Of a stretch of DNA of 64,000 bases, positions 13,301 to 47,534 are shown in pieces. Source of the DNA: a virus (lineage: Duplodnaviria; Heunggongvirae; Uroviricota; Caudoviricetes); IMG/VR virus record IMGVR_UViG_3300020202_000067, positions 17,335 through 81,334 of that record. One strand, written 5' to 3'. The notes under the pieces were generated by a model. It searched no databases and was not told where the DNA came from. It saw only the letters and a list, made by a program, of their open reading frames with translations. Every line of letters begins with the position of its first letter. Positions within the stretch are counted from its first letter, which is position 1. The position numbers and the translations under genes were made by a program.

Positions 13301-16300
13301 AAAGAAATCTGCGGCTTTTCAAATTGCTACATATAATTTCGCGGATGCAAGCAAGAACAAGTGGGTTGACAAATTCTTCAAGAAGCATCCAGAATATGCA
13401 CAGGCCGCAGATGAAGGTACGCCGCTTCAAGACTTTGATTTCTTCGATAGCGACTTCAAAAAGTTTTTCGGAATGGAAGCGCACGAAGCGCTTGCTTGGC
13501 GTCCTGAAGGCATGTTCCGCATGCGCAAATGGCCTGATGGCCAACTCACCATCGACAATATTGATGCCATCAAGGACACTCGCAAATTCATTGAACAAGT
13601 CATGGCGCAGGAGCCGGAACTTCTCAATGGCGTCAAGAGGATCAGTGTCGCAAGCGCCAAGGATGATTCATACATCGATCTGACCGTTGAGCAATTTCTT
13701 GATGGCAAGTGGAAAGGCAAAGGCTACTCCTTCGAACAACGCGGCGCCGCTCCTCCTTTCTTCTCCGTCATAGACCGGGCCGTCGGTGGCGCCTCCTTCG
13801 ACAAGGGCTCGGCGGGCCAGTGGCTGGGGCTGTTGAAGAATACCGCAGGCGTCAAGCAAGAAGAGATCAAGTGGCGTGGCATCGACAAGTTCTTGGAAGA
13901 CCGCAAAGGCCAGATGGTCACCAAGGCAGAGATCGAGGAATGGTTGCGCATCTCTGAGGTGAAGATCAAGGAGATCAGGAAGGACAACGAAAAAGCTGGC
14001 TTCATCGATGAGGATGAAGTCATGGCTGAAGCTGACAGGATTTATCGGCGCTGGTCCAGTGGTGAAAATGTAACGGCCGACTACAGAGAAGTTGAGGCTG
14101 GCCCGAACATTGCCTTCGAAGTTATTGACAATCGCGGCATTGTTATTGAGAGGGTTTATTCTCCTGAAAGTGCTAGAGCGATCGCTGAAGATTTCAACCG
14201 TGCAATCAATGAACAAGATTTTGGTGCACTGGTAGATTGGAGCCAGATCGCTGCAGAACAGATTGCAAAGTCTGATGCAGCAGAAGTAACCCGCCACGGC
14301 ACTCACATCCTCCCCGGCCCAAACTCCAAGTACCGCGAGATCTTGCTGACTCTACCTGACAATGATCGTGTTGTTCCAAATCCTGCAAAAAGGGTTTGGT
14401 GGGTAGATGTTCCGGACAGTCCGGCACCGGCCATGGCCTTCAGCGAGGAACAGGTCGCACAAATTAGGTCTCGCTATCCGGAAGGAACTAATCTTCAGGT
14501 CAGGGAAGAAAACTTCACCGGCGTTGACGTCGCTGACAGCGGCGGCACCTTCCGTGTTGATGATCATTGGCACGAAGACAACGTGCTCGCGCATGCGCGC
14601 GTCACGGAGCGTGAGCTCGGCACCGGGCAGAAAGGCTACCAGTGGGTCAACACTGGTTCAGGCAACAAGAGTCAGATCTTTCCGTCATTGGAAGCGGCTA
14701 ACGGTTACTATTGGTCGCTGCCTGACAATCTGAAGTCACAGATCAAGCTTGCGCATGTCGAAGACCGCAAGGTCAAGACTCTCTTCATCGAGGAGATCCA
14801 GAGCGATTGGCATCAGCAAGGTCGCGAGCGCGGGTACAAGGAGCCGAATGCTAAAGCGGAGCATGAGCGCTTGACGCAGGCCCACAAAGATCTCATCCCG
14901 GAGATCAACAGAGTCATAGAGGAAAATGATCGTCTTGGATTTGATACCGTTCACGAGGCCAGAGGCGCGCTGTGGCGTGATGGAGTTGAGAGATGGGAAT
15001 TCAGCAAGCCAGAAGATCTTGAGATTGCCAAGAAGTACGTTGATGCTCTGAATGCGCTCAGAGAATTTGAAGCCAAGAAATCTGACAAAGCGGTTCCTGA
15101 CGCCCCGTTCAAGAAGAACTGGCATGAGCTTATGCTCAAACGCATGATCAAGCTCGCGGCTGATGAAGGCTATGACCAGATCGCATGGACCACGGGCAAG
15201 CAGCAGAATGATCGCTGGTCGCTGTCGCGTGAGCTGAAGCGCATTGAGTATGACGAAGCGACCAAGCAACTTCGCGCCACGCCAAAGAATGGACGTGAAG
15301 AACTGCACTGGCGCGATGTCGATGGCGAACGTCTGAAGGAGATCGTAGGCGCTGAGATGGCGCGGAAAATCCTGGAGACGCAACCTTCGTCAGTGAGGCA
15401 GGTTGCTCAGATCGAAAACGACATTGTCAAGTATGTCCGGGAATTCACTGGAGATGACAACTTCACCTTTCCTGCCGCCAATGAGCCTGGCAAATGGAGC
15501 ATTATAACTAATCTTGAGAGAAACAAGCCTGCGATGAAACGGCTTGTGCAAGAGTGGCAAGATGCTTCCAATGGCCGCCTTGTTGGCAAACGCATTCTCG
15601 AAGGAGAAGACCTTGAGCTAGGCGGCCAAGGCATGAAGTCGTTCTACGACCGCATGCTGGTCAACGCTGCCAATGATCTCGGCAAGCCGCACAAGGCGCA
15701 GGTGAAGCAGGGCGAGGTTGTTACGGGGCAGAGCCTCGAAACGGTGTTCAGAGGAGAAGCTCCGACTGCAGCGAAGTTGAATGAAGTGGTTGAAGACTTG
15801 CTAGACAAGCAGTCACAAGGCATTCTCACTGGCTTCTCCAGATCCGAAATTAAACATATTGCAATAATTGCAGACGCGATGGAGGGCGGGAAAACATTCG
15901 ATCAAGCGATGCAAGTGCATGGACTTGGGTCAACATACGCTCTCATGCAGAAAGTCGGTTACGATGTGGACATGCGGCCTGCCGTTAAAACCGAACCGGT
16001 CCACGTCCTAGAGATCACGCCTGAACTCCGCCGCACGGCGCGTGAGGATGGCTTTCGGTTGTTCCAGAACCCGCGTGGGTGGGAGGATGCACCCGGCGGG
16101 CCAGATTACTTTGGTCACCCAAAAGGCATCATCGACATCAAGAGCAATGAGGCTGTTGTCAAGCTGTTCCGCACGGCTGACGCTTCCACCTTCCAGCATG
16201 AAGCGGGTCACCTGTTCTTCTTCGAGCTCATGCGCGACGCCGCAATGGATGCAGCGCCCAAGCAGCTCAAGGACGACCTCGACACTGTCTTCCGCTGGCT

Positions 16301-19300
16301 GGGCGTGCAGGACGGCACCCAGCTCACCCGTGCGCACCATGAGCAATGGGCCAAGGGCTTCGAGCGCTACTTGGCAGAGGGCAGCGCGCCTTCACCCCAG
16401 CTCCAGTCCGCCTTCGAGCGCTTCAAGACTTGGCTGATTGAAATCTACCGGTCACTGACCTCCATTGGCGACAAGGAGATCACCGACGAGGTCAGGGGCG
16501 TGATGGATCGGCTGCTGGCCACTGACCCAGAATTGGCCTTGGCCGGGAAGGCACCGCTTGTTGGCCCAGCCGGGCTAACGGGCGACATCCTCGGTGCCGT
16601 GGTGCCCAGGTTGCAGGAGGCCGGGTTCGATGGCCTAGTGACCAAAAGCGTGGGCGGGAAGACCCGCGCCATGGCTCTTCCTGCCCAGCTAGCCGGGAGG
16701 GACAAGCTCGGCGCAGCCATGGAGGCCACCGAAACGGGCGTGCCCTCACAGGTAGTGGCCCAGGGATTGGTCGGCAGCGCGGAGGACGCCGCGAGCCGCG
16801 CAGGCATTGCGCGCGTGCTGCGGACCGATGACAGCCCGGTCGGGGCGACCGGCGAAGGTGCTATAGCACCGGGACCAGATGTCTATGTCAACTTCGGCCG
16901 TATCAATGAACCTGACGACGTCAAGCAGGTTATCCGCGACCTGGCAGACGCCTTCAAGGGCGAGATCAATGAAGCACGGCGCGGTGTGCAATCCAATGAG
17001 GAGACAATCAGACTGGCGGATCGCCTTGGCATGGGGGTTGACGAGCTGCTGCAGCGTCAGAAAGGTCAGCCCTTCAATGCTGAGCAAGCGCTAGCGGCAC
17101 GGCGGCTGTTGAACACGTCGGCAGAACAGCTTCTCGGCTTCGCGGAAAAAGCTGCGCTGCCGACAGCAACGCTTGCCGACCAATACAATTTCCGCCGCAT
17201 GCTCGCCGTGCATCAAGCGATCCAGACTGAAGTGATTGCGGCAAGAACAGAGACCGCGCGTGCACTTCAGTCCTGGGCGATCCCGGCTGGTGGCAATGTC
17301 GAGATGGCACGCAACATTCAACAACTCATCGATGGAGCTGGTGGCGCAAAAGTGACGCAAGAGCTGGCCAAGCGCATGGCCATTCTCAAGGCGCAAGGTT
17401 TGCCGCCTGCTGCCATTGACACTATGGTCAAACGTTCCTGGGCGGCTGTTTCTATGGACATGGTTAAGGAAGCCTTCGTCCTTGGCCTTCTGTGGAACCC
17501 CAAAACGCATGTCGCCAACTTCGCTTCCAATCTTGTCACCGCTGCGCAACAGGTTTACGAGCGTTCAGCCGCAAGAGCGATAGGAGACCTTCTCGGCACA
17601 GCAGTCAGTGGTTCACGCGTGGTTGATGGAGAGGCCATCGCCATGATGTATGGCTGGGTGACGTCGCTCAAGGACGCATTCCGCCTGGCAGGACGCGCTG
17701 CCGTCTATGGTGAAACAGGCCAAGCCATACCTGGCTCCAAGATGGACGAGCGCATTGGCGCGATCTCTTCTCGACACATTGCTGAATCACGTGGTTACTC
17801 TGCTGTTGAGACTCAACAGTTCGTCAGCTCAACAGCAGGGCGCGCCATCGACTTCATGGGAACAGTTGTACGTTTGCCAGGCAATGCTCTGGCAGCAGGC
17901 GACGAATTCTTCAAGACTATCGGCTATCGCATGGAGTTGCATGCACACTCTTTGCGGCAGGCGACAGACGAGGGCTATACTGGACCAGACTTGTGGAAGC
18001 GTATGATGGAGATCGTCAATGATCCTCCTGAGCACATTCGCATCGCGGCCGCCGACGCGGCGCTTTACGCGACATTCCAATCTAAGATGGGAGAGATCGG
18101 CACAGCAATCAGCATGGCGCGCAATGCTGGCAGCTACAATCCAACTTTCGCAGTGCTGCCATTCGTAAAGACGCCTACCAATATTCTGCGCTACACTTTC
18201 GAGCGCACGCCGCTTGCATTCCTTGTGAAGCGCTGGAGAGACGACATCGACGCTGGCGGCGCGCGGCGCGATCTGGCATTGGCTCGCATGTCAACTGGCA
18301 CTGCCATCATGGCTGTTGCTATGGACTTTGCAGCCAATGGACAGATCACCGGCACCGGTCCGCGCGAGCGCGGCCGCAAGGAAGCATTGATGCGCGACGG
18401 CTGGCAGCCATCCAGCGCTCTTGTTGATGGAAAATACTACTCCTTCAACCGTGGCGATCCACTTGCGATGCCGTTCACTGTCATGGGACAAGTCGCCGAG
18501 ATCATGCGTTCCAAGGATCTTGCACCAGAAGACTTTGATCAGCTTCAAGAGATCATGGGCGCGGCCATAGGCATCATGTCAACGACTGTTGTTGACAAGA
18601 CTTACTTCCAAGGCATTTCGCAGATCATCATGGCGATTGAGAGCTCAGAGAAAGGTTCTCAAGCTGCAGCCAATTGGATGAACCGCCAGGTCGGCGGCTT
18701 TGTGCCATTCTCTTCTGCGCAAGGAGTGGTGAAGCAATTCACGGATCCTGTGCAGCGAGAAGTCAACTCGATGTGGGATGGCATTCAGAACCGCCTGTTC
18801 TGGATGTCAGAAAATTTGCCCCCTGTTCGTGATCTCTGGGGCGAGGAGCGTAAGCCGGAAGAAGTGTTCGGTAAGGCTTATGATGTTCTGTCGCCAGCTC
18901 AGGTCACCAAACAGAAGGGCTCGCCCATTGATCAAGAGATCATTCGTCTTGGCGGCTCCATTGAGCGCATCAAGAAGAAGGGCGAATTCATGGGGGCTGA
19001 TGTCAACTTTTATGAATGGCCGAAGGTGTATGACGAATACGTGCGCCTCGCCGGCAATGAGCTCAAGCACCCTGCCTGGGGCGTGGGGCTCAAGGATCTA
19101 TTGAATCAGGTTGTTTCTGGCAAGCATGAGTTGTCTGAAGTCTACAACTTCATGTCGAATGGACCTGAAGGCGGAAAGATGGCATGGCTCAAGAATCAGG
19201 TTTCAGCTTATCGCCGTTTGGCGCAACAAGAGATTATGAACTCAGACAAGTTTCCTGAATTTGTTAATTACGTCAATACGCGCAGACAGCAACGGCAGGA

Positions 19301-19343
19301 GTTGAAGATGCCGCCCGAAATTCTCGAACAGATGAGGCAGTGA
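10359..19343 (+). CDS. giant (2994 aa) polyvalent internal virion/injected protein with zeta-toxin-like P-loop kinase motif and HExxH metallopeptidase motif
   Basis: Single uninterrupted ORF of 8985 nt with RBS (caaaggaaataattgaATG). Walker A 'LLGPPAAGKTT' followed by 'VVDADD' at aa ~646-670 (nt ~12294), zeta-toxin/AAA_33 kinase-like. 'FQHEAGHLFFFELM' HExxH at aa 1947-1951 (nt 16197-16211). Sits in the position of T7 gp16. Confidence 0.55.
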   Translation: MAPPIKTPFPVADYADQNPTTMDILKQNEEQIELANEGLIPPKSMAEEIAPQLDELRASEVRQASLTPEDIFIPPSNPKEDDIASQYIQMAQARDNDSAIEEFKERMRARASTIAPNGRPMLPNADGSVSTEESITITDPRINGGAPTNIPSIWGGQRPPYNAGTPEAENWAVEKALESKQRFQSYRSIEDAVQAARQRSLELGKAIERGRLEQRSEVKKATDTINAMESLIAGKPIKSVTEAQSMTELFDIIMEHAQKTNWSDAPGAVAKDIGKGFFVEGVPQAVGGVNLAVKNTSRALAGLADWMTTNVGGEIPVPSTGNKKLDQAIQRPLDFITELLPGDEGIKKAETFTGIFIKEGARFLTGFIPLFRAGKAAGAGNITTSIAAGSLTDAITQTPEEPNLSNLIEKVPPLRNPVTEFLATDPNDPEALNRLRQGIEGAGMGVLTEGLLWGIRALANARKAVPELEAQRQLHGEVGDGTVVAATKDEPYTAVGGASAKNPFVLDLTSEVAREETERRLRAILTGQADGPVIKPSTRPLQDDSFGTRIEKEEVLGLIERKARPEEISAHPLIRRAMERQKRDLEAPQIRIEDITPEHRAQRKFDFNGEEVVGYDKAVPRLAANAEAYAGSNGAAANKEAIILLGPPAAGKTTIGDKLARELRYAVVDADDVKATLPEYAGGVGSTRVHPESTLINAMVLEELARSGKNMVIPKLGHGSEPIVALVQKLKELGYTVDVVNVRMDAEENYRRMISRFIHTGRLIEENYFKQIGDLPTQTYERLKREGLVREAANYDNSTAAPKRLEASERLAAAIERSGGGGDAASIGGAGARQAPPQIERLRQAAEPVYNDMLAQLRATGMKEEEALANAAVVAARYAARAERLGTGKTAMDLYKESGLRVERSDAPPSSERFIVNADEPMPFRPTKEQTLEQRRGWFGTGYWIKDGKLHKIEEGALGPHGDHDGWISIADNANKLGVDEKKSAAFQIATYNFADASKNKWVDKFFKKHPEYAQAADEGTPLQDFDFFDSDFKKFFGMEAHEALAWRPEGMFRMRKWPDGQLTIDNIDAIKDTRKFIEQVMAQEPELLNGVKRISVASAKDDSYIDLTVEQFLDGKWKGKGYSFEQRGAAPPFFSVIDRAVGGASFDKGSAGQWLGLLKNTAGVKQEEIKWRGIDKFLEDRKGQMVTKAEIEEWLRISEVKIKEIRKDNEKAGFIDEDEVMAEADRIYRRWSSGENVTADYREVEAGPNIAFEVIDNRGIVIERVYSPESARAIAEDFNRAINEQDFGALVDWSQIAAEQIAKSDAAEVTRHGTHILPGPNSKYREILLTLPDNDRVVPNPAKRVWWVDVPDSPAPAMAFSEEQVAQIRSRYPEGTNLQVREENFTGVDVADSGGTFRVDDHWHEDNVLAHARVTERELGTGQKGYQWVNTGSGNKSQIFPSLEAANGYYWSLPDNLKSQIKLAHVEDRKVKTLFIEEIQSDWHQQGRERGYKEPNAKAEHERLTQAHKDLIPEINRVIEENDRLGFDTVHEARGALWRDGVERWEFSKPEDLEIAKKYVDALNALREFEAKKSDKAVPDAPFKKNWHELMLKRMIKLAADEGYDQIAWTTGKQQNDRWSLSRELKRIEYDEATKQLRATPKNGREELHWRDVDGERLKEIVGAEMARKILETQPSSVRQVAQIENDIVKYVREFTGDDNFTFPAANEPGKWSIITNLERNKPAMKRLVQEWQDASNGRLVGKRILEGEDLELGGQGMKSFYDRMLVNAANDLGKPHKAQVKQGEVVTGQSLETVFRGEAPTAAKLNEVVEDLLDKQSQGILTGFSRSEIKHIAIIADAMEGGKTFDQAMQVHGLGSTYALMQKVGYDVDMRPAVKTEPVHVLEITPELRRTAREDGFRLFQNPRGWEDAPGGPDYFGHPKGIIDIKSNEAVVKLFRTADASTFQHEAGHLFFFELMRDAAMDAAPKQLKDDLDTVFRWLGVQDGTQLTRAHHEQWAKGFERYLAEGSAPSPQLQSAFERFKTWLIEIYRSLTSIGDKEITDEVRGVMDRLLATDPELALAGKAPLVGPAGLTGDILGAVVPRLQEAGFDGLVTKSVGGKTRAMALPAQLAGRDKLGAAMEATETGVPSQVVAQGLVGSAEDAASRAGIARVLRTDDSPVGATGEGAIAPGPDVYVNFGRINEPDDVKQVIRDLADAFKGEINEARRGVQSNEETIRLADRLGMGVDELLQRQKGQPFNAEQALAARRLLNTSAEQLLGFAEKAALPTATLADQYNFRRMLAVHQAIQTEVIAARTETARALQSWAIPAGGNVEMARNIQQLIDGAGGAKVTQELAKRMAILKAQGLPPAAIDTMVKRSWAAVSMDMVKEAFVLGLLWNPKTHVANFASNLVTAAQQVYERSAARAIGDLLGTAVSGSRVVDGEAIAMMYGWVTSLKDAFRLAGRAAVYGETGQAIPGSKMDERIGAISSRHIAESRGYSAVETQQFVSSTAGRAIDFMGTVVRLPGNALAAGDEFFKTIGYRMELHAHSLRQATDEGYTGPDLWKRMMEIVNDPPEHIRIAAADAALYATFQSKMGEIGTAISMARNAGSYNPTFAVLPFVKTPTNILRYTFERTPLAFLVKRWRDDIDAGGARRDLALARMSTGTAIMAVAMDFAANGQITGTGPRERGRKEALMRDGWQPSSALVDGKYYSFNRGDPLAMPFTVMGQVAEIMRSKDLAPEDFDQLQEIMGAAIGIMSTTVVDKTYFQGISQIIMAIESSEKGSQAAANWMNRQVGGFVPFSSAQGVVKQFTDPVQREVNSMWDGIQNRLFWMSENLPPVRDLWGEERKPEEVFGKAYDVLSPAQVTKQKGSPIDQEIIRLGGSIERIKKKGEFMGADVNFYEWPKVYDEYVRLAGNELKHPAWGVGLKDLLNQVVSGKHELSEVYNFMSNGPEGGKMAWLKNQVSAYRRLAQQEIMNSDKFPEFVNYVNTRRQQRQELKMPPEILEQMRQ

Positions 19344-28153: not shown

Positions 28154-28322
28154 CTTTGCTCTCCCTCACGACACGTTCCGCATTGCTCATCAAGGATTGT
28201 CGAAGATCCTTGTAGTATGGATCATAACCAAGAAAGTCTTCATGCTTCAATATTGCTTCGAGCATTTTGACAGGATCCTTGATTGCATCCCATTCACGCC
28301 TCAGATCTTCGTCAGCCATCAA
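28122..28322 (-). CDS. hypothetical small acidic protein
   Basis: 66 aa, ATGA-coupled to the Mini-A gene. Confidence 0.3.
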   Translation of the reverse strand: MMADEDLRREWDAIKDPVKMLEAILKHEDFLGYDPYYKDLRQSLMSNAERVVRESKDAESKVQSAG

Positions 28323-29242
28323 TCAAGATCCTCCTTTGGGTCGTATTCGTGGGCATGCTCTAATTCACCAATCATGAACTCCAGCTCCTCCTTGTCATGC
28401 GCTTCTTGCAGCAAGGCGCGCTCCCATTCCTTCTCATCACGAATACGACGCACGGCGTCGTCGATGAGATTGCGAATCACCGTCGGTTCAAGGGCATCAA
28501 GCTCCCAGCTCTGTTCGCCGAAGCGGCGTATGTATTCAGGAGAACGAACATCGCTGAACTTCACAGGGTTTGGCGGCGGATTGTAGCGCTCAATTTGATC
28601 CATGTTGAGCGCAAGACGAACAACCTGAATCTGCGTGCCAGCAAACAAGGACAACCGTGCTTGGTTGTCACGCGTCATGTCAATCCCACTTGGGTCGTGG
28701 TCGCCAAGATAAAAGACAATTGGCGTCTGCCCCTTGGAGATGTAACGAGCGAACCGGCGTCCTGCGCGCCACGCCTCGCTTTGCGAGTTGTAGCCTACAG
28801 TGGTGAAAAAATCGACACGCAACTGATTGCAGATCTGTCCGACCACGCCCACGAGCGCTTCCTTCTCCACCCAAACCTCTGGCCGGAAGCGCTGGTTCTC
28901 CCACATGTCAATGCGGTAGTGCTGCTCCTTCAACCACTTGACCGCGCCTTCAGGCGTATTGAAGGTGGTGAGACCCATAAGATTGCGGCGTCGATCCTCG
29001 ATCGCGGTCCATGAAATCAGGCCAGCGAGGCGACCTTCAGAGACAAGGTCTCCAAGACGATCGTAATTTGCCTTTTTGTTTTCCATCAACCCGCGCGCAA
29101 CGAATTGGTAATAGAGCTGACGCAGCGTGATGGACATGCCCTTGCTCTCATACTCTTCGATGATGTCGTTAGCTTGCTTGATGCGAGCCAGCGCATCGGG
29201 GCCGAAATTCTTCGGCACATAGGCGACGTAGTGTCCCTTCAT
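28319..29242 (-). CDS. topoisomerase VI subunit A / Spo11-like 'Mini-A' protein (winged-helix with catalytic-Tyr motif plus Toprim domain)
   Basis: 307 aa. 'SITLRQLYYQFV' resembles the Top6A/Spo11 catalytic tyrosine motif (R-[DE]-[IL]-[YF]-Y). 'VWVEKEALV' resembles the Toprim glutamate motif (vvEKea). 'YLGDHDPSGIDM' resembles the Toprim DxDPxG motif. The size matches the Mini-A class reported in mobile elements. Confidence 0.55.
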   Translation of the reverse strand: MKGHYVAYVPKNFGPDALARIKQANDIIEEYESKGMSITLRQLYYQFVARGLMENKKANYDRLGDLVSEGRLAGLISWTAIEDRRRNLMGLTTFNTPEGAVKWLKEQHYRIDMWENQRFRPEVWVEKEALVGVVGQICNQLRVDFFTTVGYNSQSEAWRAGRRFARYISKGQTPIVFYLGDHDPSGIDMTRDNQARLSLFAGTQIQVVRLALNMDQIERYNPPPNPVKFSDVRSPEYIRRFGEQSWELDALEPTVIRNLIDDAVRRIRDEKEWERALLQEAHDKEELEFMIGELEHAHEYDPKEDLD

Positions 29243-29595: not shown

Positions 29596-29785
29596 TGAAA
29601 TCCATCGCCGGTGTTCTTGCAGGGTGATGCATCGAAAATTGCATTGCGATCTGGTTCATTACACCGCCAGCTTTGGCACCAGCTTCGAAATAAGCTGATG
29701 CCAATTTGAGATGATGGGCACAGAGGAACTCAGCTTCCGTCTGATTGACCTTGTCGTCAAGACTCACGCCACTTCGCTTATCCAT
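29555..29785 (-). CDS. hypothetical small helical protein
   Basis: 76 aa ORF. Confidence 0.3.
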   Translation of the reverse strand: MDKRSGVSLDDKVNQTEAEFLCAHHLKLASAYFEAGAKAGGVMNQIAMQFSMHHPARTPAMDFIVAVDKAYEELES

Positions 29786-30995
29786 GCTTCAACCTCCTCT
29801 TGTCCTCATCAACTTGTGGATCGATCGACACTTTATCTCCCGTGCGAAGACCATGGTGATAGGCGTCTGAGTTCTGACGCATGTCCTCCTTGGTCATGCG
29901 AAAGTATCTTTGGCGATTGACGCGTCGTTCCGCAGCACGTTCACGTGCACGCTGCCTAGCCGCTTCCTTCTTGGCTTCAGCCGCAGCTTCTTCAGGATGC
30001 GCCGCAGCCCATTCAGCATACTCCTTCTCAGCCGCAGCTTGCGCTTCAGCTTGATGGCGGCGACGCTCCATCATTTCTTTTTTCAGCTCTTCAAGATGCG
30101 CCTGTTTCCGCGCCCATGCACCTTCACCATGGAGGAAGTCGTAGTTAGCCTGCTCCTCACGCGCCTCTACATCCGCAAGCGTGAGCGCAGTGGATGTAGA
30201 AACCCCATGAGCTGCCGCCCGCTTCGCAGCTTCGCGCTTTTCCAACTCCTCCTTGTCCTTAATGTCTTGACGACGCTGCTGAATTTTCTCGATCACAGCG
30301 TCAGCAATGCCTTCACGGAAGGCGACAGCCCAGGAGGAGTACCGCTGCTTGTGCGCCTCACCGCCGAGCCGCTCGATCGTCAAACGCTCAATGGTGCCGA
30401 GCAGGTAGCTAGCCATGTTCTTGGTGGCAATAACATTGACCTCACGCCCAACAAGGCGCAACTCATGGGTGTAACGTCGTCCGCGCCTTTCCTGAATTGA
30501 TCCTGGCTTAACACGAACTTTCATCACCCAGAAGAAGCAGTAGTTCAGCTCAGCGATCGCTTCCCACAAGCGGCGCTGGAATTTGTGCATACCGCCGGAG
30601 ACATATTCATCCACGCGCTTGCCCGCCTTGCCAGTGGCAGACTCAATGGTGGACATGTCAAGGTTGTAAGCTTCAAGAAGCTCATTCGCCTTAGCCAAGG
30701 CTGAAGCAGCTTCCTCCTGGTTTGGATTGCGTTCCGCCAACTGCATCAGCTTGGCGATGCGCTCAACGACCTTCTGGGTTGCGTCGTCCACTATTTGAGC
30801 TCCGTTTCGTTGATCGCTTTCTTGAGTTGATTGAATTCTTCTTCCGTCATATGGAAGCTGAGCGAGATGCCGCGATCCTCCATAATGAGCGTGACTTTTC
30901 GTTCGATGCCCCAAGGAGCAGTGCGCCAGTGCCTTGTTGTGTTCACCACCGATACTCCTGATAGATGCCGATCGGCTTAACTTCGATCTTATCAC
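29778..30995 (-). CDS. coiled-coil E/A/K/R-rich protein (DUF2786-like N-terminus 'EAASALAKANELLEAYNL'); true start probably ~30779 (GTG, RBS ggag) or ~30746 (ATG)
   Basis: The track ORF begins at a GTG and its first ~70 aa are low-complexity. The conserved-looking part starts at 'VDDATQKVVERIAKLMQLAERNP'. Long Glu/Ala/Arg coiled coil downstream. Confidence 0.35.
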   Translation of the reverse strand: MIRSKLSRSASIRSIGGEHNKALAHCSLGHRTKSHAHYGGSRHLAQLPYDGRRIQSTQESDQRNGAQIVDDATQKVVERIAKLMQLAERNPNQEEAASALAKANELLEAYNLDMSTIESATGKAGKRVDEYVSGGMHKFQRRLWEAIAELNYCFFWVMKVRVKPGSIQERRGRRYTHELRLVGREVNVIATKNMASYLLGTIERLTIERLGGEAHKQRYSSWAVAFREGIADAVIEKIQQRRQDIKDKEELEKREAAKRAAAHGVSTSTALTLADVEAREEQANYDFLHGEGAWARKQAHLEELKKEMMERRRHQAEAQAAAEKEYAEWAAAHPEEAAAEAKKEAARQRARERAAERRVNRQRYFRMTKEDMRQNSDAYHHGLRTGDKVSIDPQVDEDKRRLKHG

Positions 30996-39453: not shown

Positions 39454-39894
39454 TTACATGGACTTAGCGTAAATCAGGTCGTGGTAGACCTGGTCCCAAT
39501 CCCACTGCGCAGGTCCGCCAGAGTTTTCGAAAATCCAAAAACGCTTCGGCACGCCAACAAGTCCGGACGTGGCAAGATCGCGTATAGCCGCGCCTCTCAA
39601 CAGAATGAGATCATCACGCGCTTCACGTCGTTTGCCAGCCTTCGCCAGACGACGCACAGCGATGAAGACGCGACCACCATTGCGTATGCGACGCTCTATC
39701 CAACCCACCTGCGATGGCTGCACTTCACACGCGCTCGCCTCACAGCGCTTGTTCTCGATCCAACCTTCTGTGCCATCATGGCAGTAGTTCATGTCGGGCA
39801 CTCCTTGGCCCGTGCTCCATGTCTCCACCGCCTGCCAATGCACCATCGGTAGATGTTGTTGAAATAGTTGTCGCAGTCCCCCGTCGGTCTTCAC
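39454..39894 (-). CDS. VRR-NUC / PD-(D/E)xK family nuclease
   Basis: 146 aa. 'QGVPDMNYCHDGTEGWIENK' is G-x-PD...E-x-K. N-terminal helix 'LRQLFQQHL' fits the VRR-NUC layout. Confidence 0.45.
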   Translation of the reverse strand: MKTDGGLRQLFQQHLPMVHWQAVETWSTGQGVPDMNYCHDGTEGWIENKRCEASACEVQPSQVGWIERRIRNGGRVFIAVRRLAKAGKRREARDDLILLRGAAIRDLATSGLVGVPKRFWIFENSGGPAQWDWDQVYHDLIYAKSM

Positions 39895-40099
39895 GCTGAA
39901 ACCTCGTCCATGGCAAATCGCGCGGCTTCATCACGCGCTCCATTGTGGTGAATGTTCTTCCACAAGACAAACATTTGCGATGCCGTCTAGCACGACGTGT
40001 CTGCATCACCTTGCTTGCGCTGTACCGGCAATAGGGGCAACAGACCTCTGTCTGCGAACTCTTTGCTCCGGATCTTGGCAGTCTGATCCTAGCCATCAA
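39776..40099 (-). CDS. Ogr/Delta-like C4 zinc-finger protein (putative late transcription activator); probable ATG start at 40096
   Basis: 'CCPYCRYSASKVMQTRRARRHRKCLSCGRTFTTMERV' has CxxC-x17-CxxC spacing and an 'F-T-T-x-E-R-V' tail like P2 Ogr 'CSATFITYESV'. Its 3' end overlaps the VRR-NUC gene by ~118 nt in another frame, so the true C-terminus is uncertain. Confidence 0.35.
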   Translation of the reverse strand: MMARIRLPRSGAKSSQTEVCCPYCRYSASKVMQTRRARRHRKCLSCGRTFTTMERVMKPRDLPWTRFQREDRRGTATTISTTSTDGALAGGGDMEHGPRSARHELLP

Positions 40100-42929
40100 T
40101 TTCTCCGAGGTACTTCACAGCCTTGATCTTGATCATGCGGAAGTCAGGCGGAACTGAGCCCTTGATTGCATAGAGCGACTTGCCTACTCGACCTTGCTCC
40201 ACGATCTGCCGACCAATGCGCTCGAAGTCGTAGCGGCTCACCTTGCAAAAGATCATGTCGGTGTCGTCCTTAATGAACAAGTTCAACGCAGCCGTCGGCC
40301 CATTGACCGCGTAGCCGCGCTTCATGACGTTGACGGCTTCGTTCTCATCCTTGGGCGCGATCTTGGAAGCGACGCCGATGATGACAACATCCTTGAACGC
40401 ACCGTCCGCTTGCACATCAATGACTGGCGTTGGCGCAGTGACAATGTTGATTGCTCCAAGATCTGGATGCAGCTCCTTCACCTTGTCAGCTATTGGGAAC
40501 AACGTGTCAATGTCGGTCTTGGCGTTGTCAAGTCGCTTCTTCAAGGTGGCACGCAGCGGTGTTCCTGAGGACCTCGCTTCCATGATCTCGCGGACGGTTG
40601 CTGAACCGATGCCCTTGATCGAGGTGAGAGGACCCACAAGGATCGTCCTCTCACCTTTCTTGATTGGCATCCACTTGTCTGTGGAGTGGTCCGGGTCAAA
40701 GGCGAGATAGTCAATGCCTTCTTCCTTCAACTCGCGCAGCAGCGCAATCTGTTTTGCTGGATCGCTCTCAGCATCTAATGTGGCAGCGGCAAACTCAACA
40801 GGATAATGCGCCTTGAGCCAACAGCAATAATACGACACGAGACCGTAGGCGACAGCGTGCGAACGGTTAAAAGCCCAAGAGCCGAAGGTGTTGATCTGAT
40901 CCCAAACAAGGCGCGCTGTGTCTTCATCGATCCCATTTTTCAATGCTCCATCCTTGAACTTCAACCAGTAGCGTTCGAAGAACTCATTGCCGAGACGGCC
41001 AGACATCGCCTTACGAATAGCAGACGTGTCCTCCCAGGACATGCCTCCCATCTCACGCACGATCTTCATCACCTGTTCCTGATAGATGGTGATGCCGAGC
41101 GTCTCCTTGGTGAGCTCGGTAAGCATAGGATGATAAGAAGATATCGGCTCCTTGCCGAGCTTACGTCGCACCCAGGACCCAGCGCCGCCCGTGGCCATTG
41201 GTCCAGGGCGCGCAAGCGCTGTAATCGAGATGATGTCTTCTAGGTGCGTCACCTCAATCTGCTTCACTAGCGATTGCAACGCCTGACCAGCAAATTGGAA
41301 CACACCAGCGAAGCGGTGCTGACTGAGAACATTGAATGCCGCCGCATCGTCCAATGGCAATCGATCAAAGAAGCGGAAATTTCCCTCTTCGCCGATCAGC
41401 TCCAATGCGCGCTCGAAGATTGAAAGCTGCGTCAGACCCAGAGCGTCGATCTTGAGTAGGTTCAGATCCTCAGCATCCTTCTTGTCGCACATGGCTGCGT
41501 TGGTGCGGCTGTCTACAGCGACATATTCAAGAATAGGCTCATCGGTGACAAGAACGCCAGCCGCGTGTTGCGAGGACGTTGTCGGGTGGCCTTCCATGCG
41601 GGAAGCCATCATGGCTTCTGGAAATTCATTCAGAAGAGACTGACCATTGATTGTCTCCTTGAGCGTGTCCTCAAGTTGCTGCATGGCGCGTGAGTCACCG
41701 GAGGAGCGTTCGATGATGCCGTCAAGCGCCTTGTCAACCTTCCACTTTGGTATGCGCAAGGAGATGCCAGCTTGCTGCAACGCGCTCTTGGGGCCGTACA
41801 TCATCACGGTTCCCAGCCGAGCCATGCGCTCCTCGCCATATTTCTCGGCAATGTACTTGAACACCTCCTCACGCTGCTTGTCAGAGAAGTCAACGTCGAT
41901 ATCTGGCAAATCCGCGCGATTGATATCGATGAAACGCTCAAAGATCAGTCCGTAAGGGATGGGATCTACTGTAGTGATATCGAGTAGGTAGCACACGAGA
42001 CTTCCACAAGAGGAGCCACGTGCCGGTCCGACAGCCATGCGGTCTCGAGCCCAACCAACAATATCTGAGAGGATGTAGAAATAGTCTTCAAACTTCTTGT
42101 CGGCGATAAGCTTAAGCTCCCGATCAAGACGCTCAGCATAGACCTTGTCTTTCAAATTGATGGAGCGTTTCTTCGCTCCTTCAATACACAATTGACGCAG
42201 CGTCTTCTTGCGCTCAGGCTTCAGGAGCGTCGCCTTCCTCAGTTCAGCTCGACATTGCTTGATTGCGTTATCTCTGGCCTTGATGGCAGCAGCCTTGTCC
42301 CGTTCACTAGCAAACCAGACAGCCTCCATCCATTCGTCATCATCAATGATCCATTGCGGATATGTTTGAGTGCCAGCTCTCTTCCCGAGAGCGACACGGT
42401 AAAGCTCAAGATCGGCTTGGCGAGGAAAGACATTGTCGCCGCTAGCGATGAAGCGGAACCCAGCAGCCTTCGCTTGTTTGTAGAGACCAATTGGCGTTGA
42501 TGGTGATAGAGCAACATAGAGATCCTTGTCCTTTTTCTTCACACGCTCAAGCTGCAGACGCTCGCCAGCGATCTTGATCACGCCCTGTGCGGCAAGCGCC
42601 TGCTTGTAAAGCAAGCTCGGCTCACGGCCAGGATTGGCTGTTGCAAGCGCAATGAGCTCATGGATAGAACGCAATGAGTCCTTGGCGAAGAATGTCCAGT
42701 AGTCTGGGCTTGGCCGCTTCTCCCCCAGAGAAGAGACCACTGCTAGTTCTACACCATAGATCGGTCTAAGCTCGTGCTTTGCGCACAGCTTAGACCAACG
42801 ATTAAATCCGAAGGCGCTCGTCCTGTCTGAAATCGGCGCGGCCTTCCACTTGATCTCCTTCAGACGCTCTATAATGTCTGGCAGGTGCCCCACCGCAGTG
42901 CGGAAGGAATATCCCGTGCGTATTCTCAT
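40089..42929 (-). CDS. dnaE: DNA polymerase III alpha subunit (DnaE-type), compact 946 aa with degenerate PHP domain
   Basis: 'GPARGSSCGSLVCYLLDITTVDPIPYGLIFERFIDINRADLPDIDVDF' is the DnaE palm signature (cf. [23 protein letters not shown]...MPDIDIDF). The N-terminus 'MRIRTGYSFRTAVG' lacks the PHP His residues. Confidence 0.75.
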   Translation of the reverse strand: MRIRTGYSFRTAVGHLPDIIERLKEIKWKAAPISDRTSAFGFNRWSKLCAKHELRPIYGVELAVVSSLGEKRPSPDYWTFFAKDSLRSIHELIALATANPGREPSLLYKQALAAQGVIKIAGERLQLERVKKKDKDLYVALSPSTPIGLYKQAKAAGFRFIASGDNVFPRQADLELYRVALGKRAGTQTYPQWIIDDDEWMEAVWFASERDKAAAIKARDNAIKQCRAELRKATLLKPERKKTLRQLCIEGAKKRSINLKDKVYAERLDRELKLIADKKFEDYFYILSDIVGWARDRMAVGPARGSSCGSLVCYLLDITTVDPIPYGLIFERFIDINRADLPDIDVDFSDKQREEVFKYIAEKYGEERMARLGTVMMYGPKSALQQAGISLRIPKWKVDKALDGIIERSSGDSRAMQQLEDTLKETINGQSLLNEFPEAMMASRMEGHPTTSSQHAAGVLVTDEPILEYVAVDSRTNAAMCDKKDAEDLNLLKIDALGLTQLSIFERALELIGEEGNFRFFDRLPLDDAAAFNVLSQHRFAGVFQFAGQALQSLVKQIEVTHLEDIISITALARPGPMATGGAGSWVRRKLGKEPISSYHPMLTELTKETLGITIYQEQVMKIVREMGGMSWEDTSAIRKAMSGRLGNEFFERYWLKFKDGALKNGIDEDTARLVWDQINTFGSWAFNRSHAVAYGLVSYYCCWLKAHYPVEFAAATLDAESDPAKQIALLRELKEEGIDYLAFDPDHSTDKWMPIKKGERTILVGPLTSIKGIGSATVREIMEARSSGTPLRATLKKRLDNAKTDIDTLFPIADKVKELHPDLGAINIVTAPTPVIDVQADGAFKDVVIIGVASKIAPKDENEAVNVMKRGYAVNGPTAALNLFIKDDTDMIFCKVSRYDFERIGRQIVEQGRVGKSLYAIKGSVPPDFRMIKIKAVKYLGEIDG

Positions 42930-43375
42930 GCAGCCCTCTTCCCCTTGCGCTTATACCTTGGAATGCCAACTTCGCCTTCAACGACGCTGACCAATGCAAC
43001 AGAGCAATCACAACGCTTAGCAATTTCCTGCTGGCTCAATCCCTGCTTCGCCAAGGCGATGATCTTGGCGCGGCGCTCTGGATCATCTGTCTTCGGGCGC
43101 TTCTCAAGGCCAGCGATCCTTGCATAACGTAACACTGTATTGCGGGAGCATCCGTATTTCTTCTGAATATCATTCACCGGAACGCCAGCCTTGTAGTCTG
43201 CCACCACATGCTCAAAGCGCACCAAACGATTGGCGCGCTCATGAGTGAATGAAAAGATGCGCTTCACTTGCGCAATGAATTCAAGGAACGGCTTCACCGC
43301 CTTCCTGGTTCTCAGATACTCCGCCGCATCCTTCAGTGTGAACAGCATCATCTGGATCCTTCTTATTACGCTCAT
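42926..43375 (-). CDS. tandem-HTH DNA-binding protein (probable start ~43351 'MMLFTLKD...')
   Basis: Two HTH-like segments 'VNDIQKKYGCSRNTVLRYARIAG' and 'LSQQEIAKRCDCSVALVSVVEG'. RBS aagaagga before the internal ATGs. ATGA-coupled to the dnaE start. Confidence 0.4.
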   Translation of the reverse strand: MSVIRRIQMMLFTLKDAAEYLRTRKAVKPFLEFIAQVKRIFSFTHERANRLVRFEHVVADYKAGVPVNDIQKKYGCSRNTVLRYARIAGLEKRPKTDDPERRAKIIALAKQGLSQQEIAKRCDCSVALVSVVEGEVGIPRYKRKGKRAA

Positions 43376-43616
43376 TGATGCGTTTCATATCTTCAAGCGT
43401 GGCTGCGCCAGACGCCACAACAGCGCATTGCGCCCAACCTAGCCAACGGCATTTCTTGCCATATGACATTGGATCATTTTCATCTTCTCGTTCCCGCATG
43501 CGGTGATACATATTGATCAAATGCGCTGCGCTCAGAGGTCCGCTGTTAGGCAATTTCTGCGCAACGGACGATGCAAGATAAACGGTTTCTTTCATCGCTT
43601 CCATAACATTCATCAA
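43281..43616 (-). CDS. hypothetical protein (3' end overlaps the HTH gene; extent uncertain)
   Basis: 111 aa ORF. ATGA-coupled to the DnaQ-like gene stop at 43613. Confidence 0.25.
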   Translation of the reverse strand: MMNVMEAMKETVYLASSVAQKLPNSGPLSAAHLINMYHRMREREDENDPMSYGKKCRWLGWAQCAVVASGAATLEDMKRINERNKKDPDDAVHTEGCGGVSENQEGGEAVP

Positions 43617-44155
43617 AGAATTCCCTTTTTAATGAGTTCAACACAACAGCGCTTGAGCGCCATGACGTCAACCTTGGCGCGATGAGCGCCCTCGAACTTC
43701 TCACCGAACAACAACTCGTGTAGGCCTGAAAGATTCAAGCGGTGACCTTTCAGGTGCACAGTCTGTTCCACAGTGCAGATCCTAATCTTTGGCCAATTAA
43801 CCTTGAGACCGCAACGTTCCGCCTCAATGTCGATCATCTCGATATCGAACGATAAGTTGTGCCCGATAACGATAGGTGATGCCTCGATCAGCTTAATGAT
43901 CTTCGAAGCTACATCCTTGAACGTTGGTGCGTCTTTCACATCCTCCCATTTGAGCCCTGTGATGGAGGTAATCAACTCAGTAATTGCCTCTGGTGAAGAG
44001 GGGCGTACAAGCTGATCGAGCTCATTGATCTTCTTGTCCTTAGCCAAGTCCCAAGTGCAGCCGTAGAATTCGATGAGCTCCGGCAGCTTGTCGTTCTTGA
44101 CTGTGCGGTTCTCAATGAGGCCGGTGGTCTCTGTGTCAAACAATAGAGCCTTCAT
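43613..44155 (-). CDS. dnaQ: DnaQ-like 3'-5' exonuclease (DEDDh, Pol III epsilon-like)
   Basis: Exo I 'LFDTETTGL', Exo II 'VIGHNLSFDIEM', Exo III 'HRAKVDVMAL'. 180 aa, next to dnaE. Confidence 0.7.
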   Translation of the reverse strand: MKALLFDTETTGLIENRTVKNDKLPELIEFYGCTWDLAKDKKINELDQLVRPSSPEAITELITSITGLKWEDVKDAPTFKDVASKIIKLIEASPIVIGHNLSFDIEMIDIEAERCGLKVNWPKIRICTVEQTVHLKGHRLNLSGLHELLFGEKFEGAHRAKVDVMALKRCCVELIKKGIL

Positions 44156-47415: not shown

Positions 47416-47534
47416 TACGCAGCTCGGTGAGTGACATCCTGCTTAGCCGTCCTGAAGTTACGGCCAAGGTCGAGGTGACTTTGGAAAGACGTTGATGCCA
47501 CCTCACCCAAGCGATGATTTTCTCAGTAATGGTC

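What the first reader, a model, noticed from the sequence alone, without database searches (positions are those of the whole stretch)
28319..29242. Topoisomerase VI-A / Spo11-like 'Mini-A' protein in the early operon
A 307-aa protein carries the three diagnostic motifs of the type IIB topoisomerase A subunit in the correct order. The first is a winged-helix region with the catalytic tyrosine motif 'ITLRQLYYQFV'. The second is the Toprim glutamate 'WVEKEAL'. The third is the Toprim metal-binding 'GDHDPSG'. It lacks the N-terminal extension and has no B-subunit (GHKL ATPase) gene nearby. This matches the small 'Mini-A' class recently noticed in plasmids and phages, whose function is unknown (nicking/relaxation, replication initiation, or recombination). 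Here it sits among early genes.
Basis: partly seen in the sequence, partly recalled or inferred. Interest (0 to 1): 0.7.

Follow-up and report, generated by a model that had tools for sequence, protein, structure and literature searches.

The report
Phage Mini-A topoisomerase-like protein
This phage gene encodes a typical member of the already described "Mini-A" family: a short, stand-alone relative of the DNA-cutting subunit of topoisomerase VI/Spo11 with every catalytic residue intact, no ATPase partner, and a biological role that nobody has yet tested.

Summary

The interpretation (Mini-A, type IIB topoisomerase A-subunit homolog) is supported:
- PHROG 6247 "DNA topoisomerase", E 5.6e-96.
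- It matches elements annotated "Topo mini-A" (E 4e-18) and is 63% identical to Pam3 gp41.
- In the AF2 model (pLDDT 86.8), Top6A is the only solved family matching both domains.
- Catalytic residues are essentially invariant in 424 homologs.

Corrections:
- The nucleophile is Y45, the second Tyr, not the first.
- "Early operon" cannot be shown from sequence. The gene sits in a replication/DNA-metabolism block.
- Similarity to Top6A/Spo11 is below Pfam thresholds, and the profile-profile comparison was not significant. That link rests on fold, motif order and literature.

No GHKL ATPase occurs anywhere in the window, and no gene accompanies Mini-A across 166 loci.

Likely mechanism (inferred): a homodimeric, Mg-dependent, Tyr-linked DNA cleavage/rejoining enzyme gated by an R41-E247 clasp, serving phage replication or recombination.

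Verdict: a new member of a known family whose function is still unknown. Interest is modest.

The parts
28319..29242 (-). Mini-A gene: 307 aa plus TGA stop at 28319..28321
   Evidence: ORF list and translation. PHROG 6247 'DNA topoisomerase', E 5.6e-96. More than 8000 homologs. The exact protein is also on a Logan SRR7003765 contig.
28907..29215 (-). N-terminal winged-helix / truncated 5Y-CAP domain (about residues 10-112) carrying R41 and the catalytic Y45
   Evidence: AF2 helices H15-33, H40-49 and H57-72. Foldseek aligns about 290 columns to the Topo VI A subunit across both domains. 7 of 96 family members give weak TP6A_N hits.
29099..29128 (-). TLRQLYYQFV motif. R41 (29120..29122) is the clasp/DNA-contact Arg. 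Y45 (29108..29110) is the predicted nucleophile.
   Evidence: Coordinates. R41 and Y45 are 421/423 conserved, while Y44 is Y/F/H. Same T-[LV]-R-x-[LI]-[YF]-Y-x-x-V pattern as yeast Spo11 129-138, TVRDIFYSNV. The paper states the catalytic Tyr follows a Y/F.
28487..28894 (-). Toprim domain (about residues 117-252)
28853..28873 (-). WVEKEAL motif. E126 (28865..28867) is the Toprim metal-binding Glu.
   Evidence: E126 and K127 are 424/424 conserved. 'VEKEA' is identical to yeast Spo11 232-236 and close to S. shibatae Top6A 'VEKDA'. hhalign pairs E126 with the Top6A ETGG Glu, which is M. mazei E202.
28685..28705 (-). GDHDPSG motif. D181 and D183 are the DxD metal ligands and G186 completes DxDxxG.
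   Evidence: D181, D183 and G186 are 424/424 conserved. hhalign pairs them with Top6A DGDPWS, which is M. mazei D254/D256. Compare Spo11 D288-A-D290-P-Y-G.
28490..28510 (-). SWELDAL, the T2BI box and Mini-A signature. E247 is the fourth acidic residue and the clasp partner of R41.
   Evidence: The xWELDAL signature discriminates Mini-A from Topo VI (R/KxExxA/S) and Topo VIII (RVELNAM). E247 is 422/422 and W246 is 417/422 conserved. By motif position E247 corresponds to Top6A E342; that residue clasps R102, and E342Q hyper-cleaves.
28322..28486 (-). C-terminal helical extension (residues 253-307), longer than the tail that follows the T2BI box in Top6A
   Evidence: AF2 helices H253-267 and H270-299, with pLDDT 94-98 for residues 251-290. 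In the Top6A alignment only about 25 residues follow the KAEQQA box. Its role is not established; I suggest dimerisation as an inference only.
29778..30995 (-). Upstream DUF2786 + DUF7168 gene. It is a clade-specific syntenic neighbour, not an established partner.
   Evidence: Pfam PF10979 2e-12 and PF23771 3.1e-08; PHROG 421. It lies upstream on the same strand in all 19 of 166 loci that have it, almost only where Mini-A is at least 51% identical to the query. The Pam3_40/Pam3_41 pair shows the same arrangement.

Best explanation
The ORF encodes a Mini-A protein. This is the virus-borne, stand-alone subfamily of type IIB topoisomerase A subunits. It has a truncated 5Y-CAP/winged-helix domain, a Toprim domain and a T2BI box, and no ATPase (B) subunit.

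Proposed mechanism (inferred by homology; the residues are shown, the chemistry is not):
- The protein forms a homodimer like Top6A/Spo11, with two composite active sites.
- Y45 attacks the DNA backbone and forms a covalent 5'-phosphotyrosyl link.
- Mg2+ is held by the partner's Toprim acidic residues E126, D181 and D183, with E247 as the fourth acidic residue.
- R41 and E247 form the 'electrostatic clasp' that in Top6 holds the Tyr away from DNA until the substrate is suitably bent or supercoiled.

With no GHKL ATPase in the genome window, it cannot carry out ATP-driven strand passage. I therefore expect an ATP-independent, tightly gated nicking or staggered double-strand cleavage and rejoining activity.

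From gene context, I expect it to act on phage DNA during replication or recombination. My favoured role is making protein-linked breaks that feed recombination-dependent replication. Supercoil relaxation or decatenation is the main alternative.
For: Identity as Mini-A:
- PHROG 6247, E 5.6e-96.
- tblastn E 4e-18 to LC711082/LC711084, annotated 'Topo mini-A'.
- 63% identity to Pam3 gp41, annotated 'DNA topoisomerase VI'; the family is in 85 phage records.
- SWELDAL signature.

Fold:
- AF2 pLDDT 86.8, pTM 0.80.
- The four best Foldseek PDB hits are all M. mazei Topo VI A subunit, about 290 aligned columns, prob 0.89-0.99. Later hits are single-domain Rossmann-like folds.

Catalytic set:
- In 424 homologs, E126, D181, D183 and G186 are 100% conserved, E247 is 422/422, and Y45 and R41 are 421/423.
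- The hhalign register matches Top6A E202/D254/D256.
- The role of the R102-E342 clasp and the acidic tetrad in Top6 comes from PMC13040014.

Stand-alone action:
- No GHKL domain in the window.
- No neighbour family in more than about 25% of 166 loci (tyrosine integrase in 41, after HMM expansion; 13% in the first BLAST clustering); the flanking small ORFs are orphans.
- Mouse SPO11 alone cleaves DNA in vitro without partners (PMC11922746 abstract).

Context:
- The window has an SNF2 helicase, a family-A DNA polymerase with a separate exonuclease, a DUF5906 primase-helicase-like protein and ThyX.
- In other loci a YqaJ exonuclease is within 3 genes on the same strand in 10/10 loci that have one, and RecT in 6/8. 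This occurs in two lineages with opposite gene order. Helicases lie a median 5-8 genes away.
Against: - No biochemical data exist for any Mini-A.
- Sequence similarity to Top6A/Spo11 is sub-threshold: no Pfam hit for the query, PDB profile searches found nothing, and hhalign gave E 0.086.
- Global TM-score to Top6A is only about 0.3, so the relative domain orientation in the model differs.
- In archaeal Topo VI the A subunit needs the B subunit for controlled cleavage (general knowledge), so stand-alone activity is not guaranteed.
- This window has no YqaJ/RecT pair, and the Exo/RecT association covers only about 10% of loci. It may reflect ordinary clustering of early phage genes.
- Dimerisation could not be modelled.
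Confidence: 0.62

Rival explanations
1. Replication initiator nickase. Mini-A nicks one strand at a specific origin via Y45, remains 5'-linked and primes rolling-circle or sigma replication, analogous to HUH Rep proteins.
For: This role was proposed for skuldvirus Topo mini-A, which is the only replication-like gene in those small archaeal viruses. In Top6(E342Q), Mg2+ favours nicking over double-strand cleavage. The gene lies in the replication block.
Against: This roughly 80-kb phage already encodes a DUF5906 primase-helicase-like protein, a family-A polymerase and helicases. The genes around Mini-A overlap, leaving no intergenic origin-like region next to it. Wyrdvirus WyrdV4 carries both an HUH Rep and Mini-A, so the two are not simply interchangeable.
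Confidence: 0.13
2. Genuine topoisomerase. The Mini-A dimer relaxes or decatenates phage DNA without ATP, or by borrowing a host or unrecognised phage ATPase as a functional 'Mini-B'.
For: It retains the complete type IIB cleavage-religation residue set, including the religation-favouring clasp. Databases annotate it as 'DNA topoisomerase'. The defining paper leaves a non-canonical partner open.
Against: There is no GHKL domain in the window and no conserved neighbour across 166 loci. Mini-A lacks the N-terminal 5Y-CAP part that binds Top6B. Strand passage without an ATP-operated gate has no precedent in type IIB enzymes (general knowledge).
Confidence: 0.17
3. Hydrolytic Toprim nuclease of the JetD/MksG type. 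It would degrade host or competitor DNA without a covalent Tyr intermediate.
Against: Y45 and R41 are conserved in 421/423 homologs, which a purely hydrolytic nuclease would not need. PADLOC gives no JetD or other defence-model hit. No SMC/JetABC-like genes are nearby.
Confidence: 0.06
4. Catalytically inert DNA-binding or architectural protein, as annotated in Microbacterium phages ('DNA binding protein').
For: Annotation in phages Wilca and Fizzles. The winged-helix domain is present.
Against: All metal ligands and the Tyr are conserved at 99.5-100% over 424 sequences as divergent as 38% identity to the query. That indicates selection on catalysis.
Confidence: 0.02

Closest known systems
Mini-A subfamily of type IIB topoisomerases (Takahashi et al., NAR Genom Bioinform 2020; PMC7671362); PHROG 6247
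   Same: About 300 aa. RxxYY catalytic motif, Toprim E and DxDxxG, xWELDAL T2BI signature. No B subunit. Viral or proviral location. Direct sequence homology to records annotated 'Topo mini-A' and to Listeria, Salmonella and Pseudomonas phage homologs.
   Different: Nothing qualitative. It is a new sequence; the best cultured relative is Pam3 gp41 at 63% identity. The family is far larger than the 23-sequence panel in the paper: 7306 clusters at 50% identity.
Pseudanabaena phage Pam3 gp41 (UQS95112.1, annotated 'DNA topoisomerase VI')
   Same: 63% identity over 94% of the protein. The same DUF2786/DUF7168 gene lies upstream. The window also has Pam3 gp33-like and gp34-like proteins.
   Different: Little else in the 15-kb Pam3 region matches the window. 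Pam3 carries aGPT-Pplase and Nmad5 genes near it, which I recall as DNA-modification genes; I did not find them in the window.
Archaeal Topo VI A subunit (Top6A; PDB 1d3y, 2zbk, 2q2e, 9o8p) and eukaryotic Spo11 (8urq/8uru)
   Same: WH(5Y-CAP)+Toprim order. R-x-x-x-Y, the VEK(E/D)A Glu, the DxDPxG motif and the T2BI Glu. Best structural matches.
   Different: No significant sequence-profile match. It lacks the N-terminal B-binding part and the 44-67 latch region. It is about 60-130 residues shorter. It has no B subunit. It has a longer helical C-terminus and WELDAL instead of K/RxExxA/S.
Topo VIII (plasmid-borne fused B-A type IIB topoisomerase)
   Same: Mobile-element-borne. [quoted passage not shown]
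   Different: Topo VIII carries an N-terminal Bergerat-fold ATPase half and the RVELNAM signature. This protein has neither.
JetD/MksG nuclease of Wadjet/MksBEFG
   Different: No PADLOC match, no SMC partner genes, and Mini-A keeps the catalytic Tyr.

Membership tests
Mini-A (type IIB topoisomerase subfamily, PMC7671362) | [quoted passage not shown] | tested here: met
   307 aa. The R/Y pair is at residues 41/45, versus 99/103 (M. jannaschii), 102/106 (M. mazei) and 131/135 (yeast Spo11). Family median length is 305 aa.
Mini-A (type IIB topoisomerase subfamily, PMC7671362) | Catalytic Tyr preceded by Y/F, with a conserved Arg four residues upstream (RxxY/FY) | tested here: met
   R41-Q-L-Y44-Y45. 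R41 and Y45 are 421/423 conserved; Y44 is Y/F/H.
Mini-A (type IIB topoisomerase subfamily, PMC7671362) | Toprim Glu and DxDxxG metal-binding motif | tested here: met
   E126 and D181-H-D183-P-S-G186, all 424/424 conserved.
Mini-A (type IIB topoisomerase subfamily, PMC7671362) | xWELDAL T2BI-box signature, which discriminates Mini-A from Topo VI and Topo VIII | tested here: met
   S245-W-E-L-D-A-L251. W 417/422, E 422/422, D 420/422, A 416/422.
Mini-A (type IIB topoisomerase subfamily, PMC7671362) | No Bergerat-fold B subunit encoded alongside | tested here: met
   Pfam/PHROG scans of essentially all plausible ORFs of at least 90 aa in the 64-kb window found no GHKL or Topo VI-B domain. The roughly 17 kb of the 81-kb contig outside the window was not examined.
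Mini-A (type IIB topoisomerase subfamily, PMC7671362) | Encoded by a virus or provirus | tested here: met
   The window encodes Phage_capsid_2, a nozzle-like protein, an SLT protein, and Pam3 gp33-like and gp34-like proteins. Of 80 cellular loci, 30 have a tyrosine integrase and 10 a serine recombinase within 8 kb.
Mini-A (type IIB topoisomerase subfamily, PMC7671362) | Sequence homology to named Mini-A proteins | tested here: met
   tblastn E 4e-18 to LC711082/LC711084, annotated 'Topo mini-A'. Hits to Listeria, Salmonella and Pseudomonas phages, the host genera named in the paper. The paper's Table S2 accessions were not available.
Mini-A (type IIB topoisomerase subfamily, PMC7671362) | Falls in the monophyletic Mini-A clade, separate from Topo VI and Topo VIII | not tested
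   No joint phylogeny was built. Full-length Top6A and Topo VIII sequences were not obtained.
Topo VI A subunit / Spo11 (Pfam TP6A_N PF04406 + TOP6A-Spo11_Toprim PF21180) | Significant match to the family's sequence models | tested here: not met
   No Pfam or NCBIfam hit for the query. Only sub-threshold hits in 7/96 (TP6A_N) and 2/96 (Toprim) family members. hhalign versus the Top6A Toprim half gave E 0.086.
Topo VI A subunit / Spo11 (Pfam TP6A_N PF04406 + TOP6A-Spo11_Toprim PF21180) | WH(5Y-CAP)+Toprim fold in that order | tested here: met
Topo VI A subunit / Spo11 (Pfam TP6A_N PF04406 + TOP6A-Spo11_Toprim PF21180) | Works with a B subunit (Top6B/TOP6BL) and has the N-terminal B-binding region | tested here: not met
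   No B subunit in the window. The N-terminal region is absent.
Topo VIII | N-terminal Bergerat-fold ATPase half and RVELNAM signature | tested here: not met
   The protein is only 307 aa, has no ATPase domain, and carries SWELDAL instead.
JetD/MksG (Wadjet nuclease) | Match to JetD models and association with JetABC/MksBEF genes | tested here: not met
   PADLOC gave 0 hits. No SMC-like genes in the window. There is only Toprim-level fold similarity.
Any type II topoisomerase-like enzyme | Mg-dependent DNA cleavage with a covalent 5'-phosphotyrosyl intermediate | not testable with these tools
   This needs biochemistry. None is published for Mini-A in the library searched.

The most novel reading that the evidence does not exclude
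Mini-A is a phage-encoded, self-sufficient Spo11 analogue. A homodimer makes gated, protein-linked double-strand breaks in phage (or host) DNA. These are then processed by neighbouring YqaJ-type exonuclease and RecT-type annealing proteins, or host equivalents, to launch recombination-dependent replication. That would be a viral counterpart, and possibly the evolutionary source, of programmed meiotic break formation.
Probability: 0.2. Interest if true: 0.75.

Novelty: new member of a known kind. Interest (0 to 1): 0.33.

Why it matters
Mini-A is a very large phage and prophage family with no tested function. It has 7306 clusters at 50% identity and occurs in many bacterial phyla, archaea and 85 deposited phage genomes. 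It preserves the entire DNA-cleavage machinery of topoisomerase VI/Spo11 without any ATPase.

Knowing what it does would clarify three things: how many phages handle DNA breaks or topology, how type IIB A subunits are gated without a B subunit, and whether the A subunit began as a stand-alone viral enzyme.

This particular gene adds no new architecture. The survey does yield three practical points:
- Y45, not Y44, is the residue to mutate.
- The R41-E247 clasp predicts that an E247Q variant would hyper-cleave.
- Cultured phage Pam3 (gp41, 63% identical) is a tractable model.

Tried and rejected
- **Direct sequence links to solved structures.** phmmer of the query and two family profiles (41 and 96 sequences) found only chance hits.
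- **HH comparison with yeast Spo11 129-325.** It aligned only the DxD motif.
- **HH comparison with a Top6A Toprim-half alignment.** It gave the right register but E 0.086.
- **Attempt to fetch full-length Top6A.** My search with an M. mazei fragment returned only partial proteins of 215 aa or less, so the 5Y-CAP half was never tested profile-to-profile.
- **Megablast of the region against phage genomes.** No match.
- **BFVD viral fold search.** Uninformative.
- **AFDB fold search.** The library was unavailable.
- **Conserved 'Mini-B' partner.** Rejected. BLAST clustering plus HMM expansion over 166 loci found no family in more than 41 loci; the most common were integrases. The 118-aa and 66-aa ORFs translationally coupled to the gene are orphans.
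- **DUF2786/DUF7168 neighbour as a functional partner.** Downgraded to clade synteny.
- **Defence or anti-defence assignment.** No PADLOC hit.
- **Promoter/terminator scan to test 'early operon'.** Counts were near the shuffle expectation.
- **The paper's supplementary list of Mini-A accessions.** Not held.
Full report
**1. Observation**

The stated coordinates hold a 307-aa ORF on the minus strand, with an ATG start at 29242 and a TGA stop at 28319..28321. It contains TLRQLYYQFV (residues 39-48), WVEKEAL (124-130) and GDHDPSG (180-186), in that order. I verified the nucleotide coordinates. The 205-aa ORF on the plus strand inside it is a shadow ORF.

The gene's start overlaps the stop of a 118-aa ORF, and its stop overlaps the start of a 66-aa ORF. 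So it sits in a tightly packed polycistronic block.

**2. Is it a real, conserved protein?**

Yes, for four reasons:
- The exhaustive HMMER search over 50%-identity representatives found 7306 clusters at E<=1e-3 and 1021 at E<=1e-30.
- tblastn finds the family in 85 deposited phage genomes. These include Pseudomonas PaMx25/NP1-like phages, Xylella Sano/Salvo, Chi-like Salmonella phages, Roseobacter RDJL, Listeria LWP01, Microbacterium phages and haloarchaeal HCIV-1. Several are annotated 'DNA topoisomerase'. The closest is cyanophage Pam3 gp41, at 63% identity and annotated 'DNA topoisomerase VI'.
- A scan of species-representative genomes confirmed at least 479 stretches across many bacterial phyla and a methanogen. 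Of the 80 loci kept, 30 have a tyrosine integrase and 10 a serine recombinase within 8 kb, which indicates prophages.

**3. Family assignment**

Pfam and NCBIfam give no hit. PHROG 6247 'DNA topoisomerase' matches end to end at E 5.6e-96.

The paper that defined Mini-A (PMC7671362) lists these defining features:
- about 300 aa
- loss of the N-terminal 5Y-CAP part that binds Top6B
- an RxxY/FY catalytic motif
- a Toprim E and DxDxxG
- no Bergerat-fold partner
- viral or proviral location
- a C-terminal 'xWELDAL' T2BI box, said to be sufficient to separate Mini-A from Topo VI (R/KxExxA/S) and Topo VIII (RVELNAM)

It also matches archaeal elements LC711082/LC711084, whose depositors annotated the gene 'Topo mini-A', at E 4e-18. 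Every testable membership feature is met. Only clade membership by phylogeny was not tested.

**4. Relationship to Top6A/Spo11**

At sequence level this is twilight-zone similarity.
- PDB searches with the query and with 41- and 96-sequence profiles found nothing.
- Among 96 diverse members, the only recurrent sub-threshold Pfam hits were DUF2399 (9 members; I recall this as the JetD Toprim end), TP6A_N (7), DUF7281 (4) and TOP6A-Spo11_Toprim (2).

From these I built a Top6A Toprim-half alignment.

hhalign of the Mini-A profile against that alignment covered 100 columns in the biologically correct register:
- E126 pairs with the 'ETGG' Glu.
- DHDPSG pairs with DGDPWS.
- LNMDQIERYNPPP pairs with LQPSDIRDYNLPS.

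But the E-value was 0.086, which is not significant on its own.

Structure gives the stronger link. An AF2 model with pLDDT 86.8 and pTM 0.80 has as its four best Foldseek PDB hits the A subunit of M. mazei Topo VI. These hits have E 6.6e-4 to 6.6e-3, prob 0.89-0.99 and about 290 aligned columns spanning both domains. All later hits are single-domain Rossmann-like folds.

Motif-level identity with experimentally studied enzymes is direct:

| Mini-A | Comparator |
|---|---|
| T-L-R-Q-L-Y-Y-Q-F-V | yeast Spo11 129-138, T-V-R-D-I-F-Y-S-N-V |
| V-E-K-E-A | Spo11 232-236, V-E-K-E-A |
| V-E-K-E-A | S. shibatae Top6A, V-E-K-D-A |
| G-D-H-D-P-S-G | Spo11 287-293, T-D-A-D-P-Y-G |

**5. Catalytic residues and mechanism**

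In 424 unique homologs (38-70% identity to the query):

| Residue | Conservation |
|---|---|
| E126, K127, G150, S153, D181, D183, G186 | 424/424 |
| E247 | 422/422 |
| Y45, R41 | 421/423 |
| Y44 | Y 391, F 17, H 13 |

The nucleophile is therefore Y45, the second Tyr.

The 2026 Topo VI-DNA cryo-EM study (PMC13040014) defines an acidic tetrad, E202/D254/D256/E342, and an R102-E342 'electrostatic clasp' that holds the Tyr away from DNA. E342Q hyper-cleaves. Residue counting on the printed M. mazei fragment confirms that the hhalign columns paired with E126, D181 and D183 are E202, D254 and D256.

R41 and E247 occupy the positions of R102 and the T2BI Glu. That equivalence rests on motif position. 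The T2BI box lay outside the aligned HH segment, so the E247-E342 correspondence is inferred.

Mini-A therefore keeps the full cleavage, religation and gating set. By inference, it is a homodimer with composite active sites that performs Mg-dependent, Tyr-linked cleavage gated by the clasp.

A-subunit-only cleavage has precedent. [quoted passage not shown]

**6. Partner and context**

Scans of essentially every plausible ORF of at least 90 aa in the window found no GHKL/Bergerat or Topo VI-B domain. The window is a tailed-phage genome with Pam3-like genes. It encodes:
- a capsid protein, a nozzle-like protein, an SLT protein and a 2994-aa virion-block giant
- then, on the minus strand, an SNF2 helicase, DUF3846, Mini-A and a DUF2786/DUF7168 protein
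- a family-A DNA polymerase with a separate 3'-5' exonuclease, a PNK-like kinase, an SDR, a HAD phosphatase, an SPFH protein and ThyX
- Pam3 gp34-like and gp33-like proteins
- a DUF5906 primase-helicase-like protein

I clustered the genes within 8 kb of Mini-A in 166 loci: 80 viral contigs, 80 cellular genomes, 5 cultured phages and the window. I then expanded the clusters with HMMs. The findings:
- No family occurs in more than 41 loci. The most common are tyrosine integrases.
- Helicases are common but distant: ResIII/DEAD in 29 loci, SNF2 in 18 and UvrD in 17, at a median of 5-8 genes away.
- The DUF2786/DUF7168 gene is upstream on the same strand in all 19 loci that have it. These are almost only loci whose Mini-A is at least 51% identical to ours, so this is Pam3-clade synteny.
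- The small ORFs flanking the gene are orphans.

So there is no 'Mini-B'.

The one tight linkage is with recombination genes. A YqaJ exonuclease (Pfam-confirmed) lies within 3 genes on the same strand in 10/10 loci that have one, and RecT in 6/8. This occurs in two lineages with opposite gene order: alphaproteobacterial (pro)phages have Exo-c15-x-MiniA, and actinomycete genomes have MiniA-Exo-RecT. This covers only about 10% of loci and does not include this window. I treat it as a lead favouring a recombination role, not as proof.

**7. 'Early operon'**

This is not testable from sequence. Promoter-like and terminator-like counts are near the shuffle expectation. 'Replication/DNA-metabolism module' is the defensible description.

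**8. Literature status**

In the library searched, with papers up to mid-2026, no paper reports Mini-A biochemistry. The only functional idea is rolling-circle initiation in small Asgard viruses.

**9. Verdict**

The finding is correct, and it is a clean example of a known but uncharacterised family. It has no new architecture, no unusual context and no partner.

The added value is:
- the WELDAL confirmation
- the corrected catalytic Tyr
- the mapping of the R41-E247 clasp and acidic tetrad onto Mini-A
- the size and breadth of the family
- the absence of any conserved partner
- the Exo/RecT lead

Novelty: new member of a known kind. Interest: 0.33.

Noticed in passing
window 10359..19343 (+): A giant 2994-aa ORF in the structural block, downstream of the nozzle-like and SLT-transglycosylase genes. 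It carries a Zeta-toxin/AAA_33 P-loop kinase domain at residues 637-790. It may be an ejected internal virion protein with a toxin-like kinase module.
   Followed up: partly
window, one of the 42 small ORFs listed (not located): One ORF matches Pfam Tad3 (Type I Thoeris inhibitor) at E 1.9e-23. This would be an anti-defence gene in the phage.
   Followed up: no
window 61719..62414 (+), 61490..61789 (+), 39776..40099 (-): There is a GcrA-like cell-cycle regulator domain (PF07750, 5e-16), a LuxR/GerE regulator (3.2e-17) and an NrdR-type zinc ribbon. I assigned them to these ORFs by eye from N-terminal motifs. As I recall, GcrA is typical of Alphaproteobacteria and their phages. That would hint at such a host, even though the closest cultured Mini-A is from a cyanophage.
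   Followed up: partly
window 44152..49618 (-): A nucleotide/DNA-metabolism cluster: a PNK-like kinase (PHROG 4889), a short-chain dehydrogenase, a HAD-PNKP phosphatase, an SPFH/Band-7 protein and ThyX. Relative Pam3 carries aGPT-Pplase1/2 and Nmad5 genes near its Mini-A, which I recall as thymidine-hypermodification genes. Xylella phage Sano has a kinase two genes upstream. I did not test whether Mini-A phages tend to have modified DNA.
   Followed up: no
window 40089..44155 (-): The family-A DNA polymerase (946 aa, 40089..42929) and its 3'-5' exonuclease (180 aa, 43613..44155) are separate ORFs. A 149-aa multi-HTH protein (42926..43375) and a 111-aa ORF lie between them. This may be a split polymerase with an inserted element.
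   Followed up: no
window 29778..30995 (-); L081 5965..6993 (Pam3_40): A DUF2786 + DUF7168 protein with a long charged, probably coiled-coil C-terminus lies just upstream of Mini-A throughout the Pam3-like clade (19 loci, always upstream on the same strand) but not elsewhere. Its function is unknown.
   Followed up: yes
L027, L033, L045, L089, L093 (Exo-c15-x-MiniA); L109, L119, L134, L137 (MiniA-Exo, followed by RecT in L109 and L119): YqaJ exonuclease and RecT (or an unnamed 320-aa protein, cluster c15, at the RecT position) lie within 3 genes of Mini-A in two unrelated lineages with opposite order. A Pol III beta clamp gene follows in the alphaproteobacterial set.
   Followed up: partly
plasmid records H43-H55: 34 Streptomyces plasmids, several very large (0.5-0.8 Mb), carry distant Mini-A homologs at 25-28% identity, annotated hypothetical. 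The defining paper described Mini-A as virus-associated, so these may be plasmid-borne prophages or a separate plasmid lineage.
   Followed up: no
window 55154..56179 (-) and 57202..57804 (-): Pfam families named after Pam3 proteins match here: Pam3_Gp34 at 4.8e-34 and DUF7307 'Pam3 gp33-like' at 3e-21. Yet only Mini-A and the DUF2786 gene share similarity with the 15-kb Pam3 region examined. The relationship to Pam3 is therefore mosaic.
   Followed up: partly
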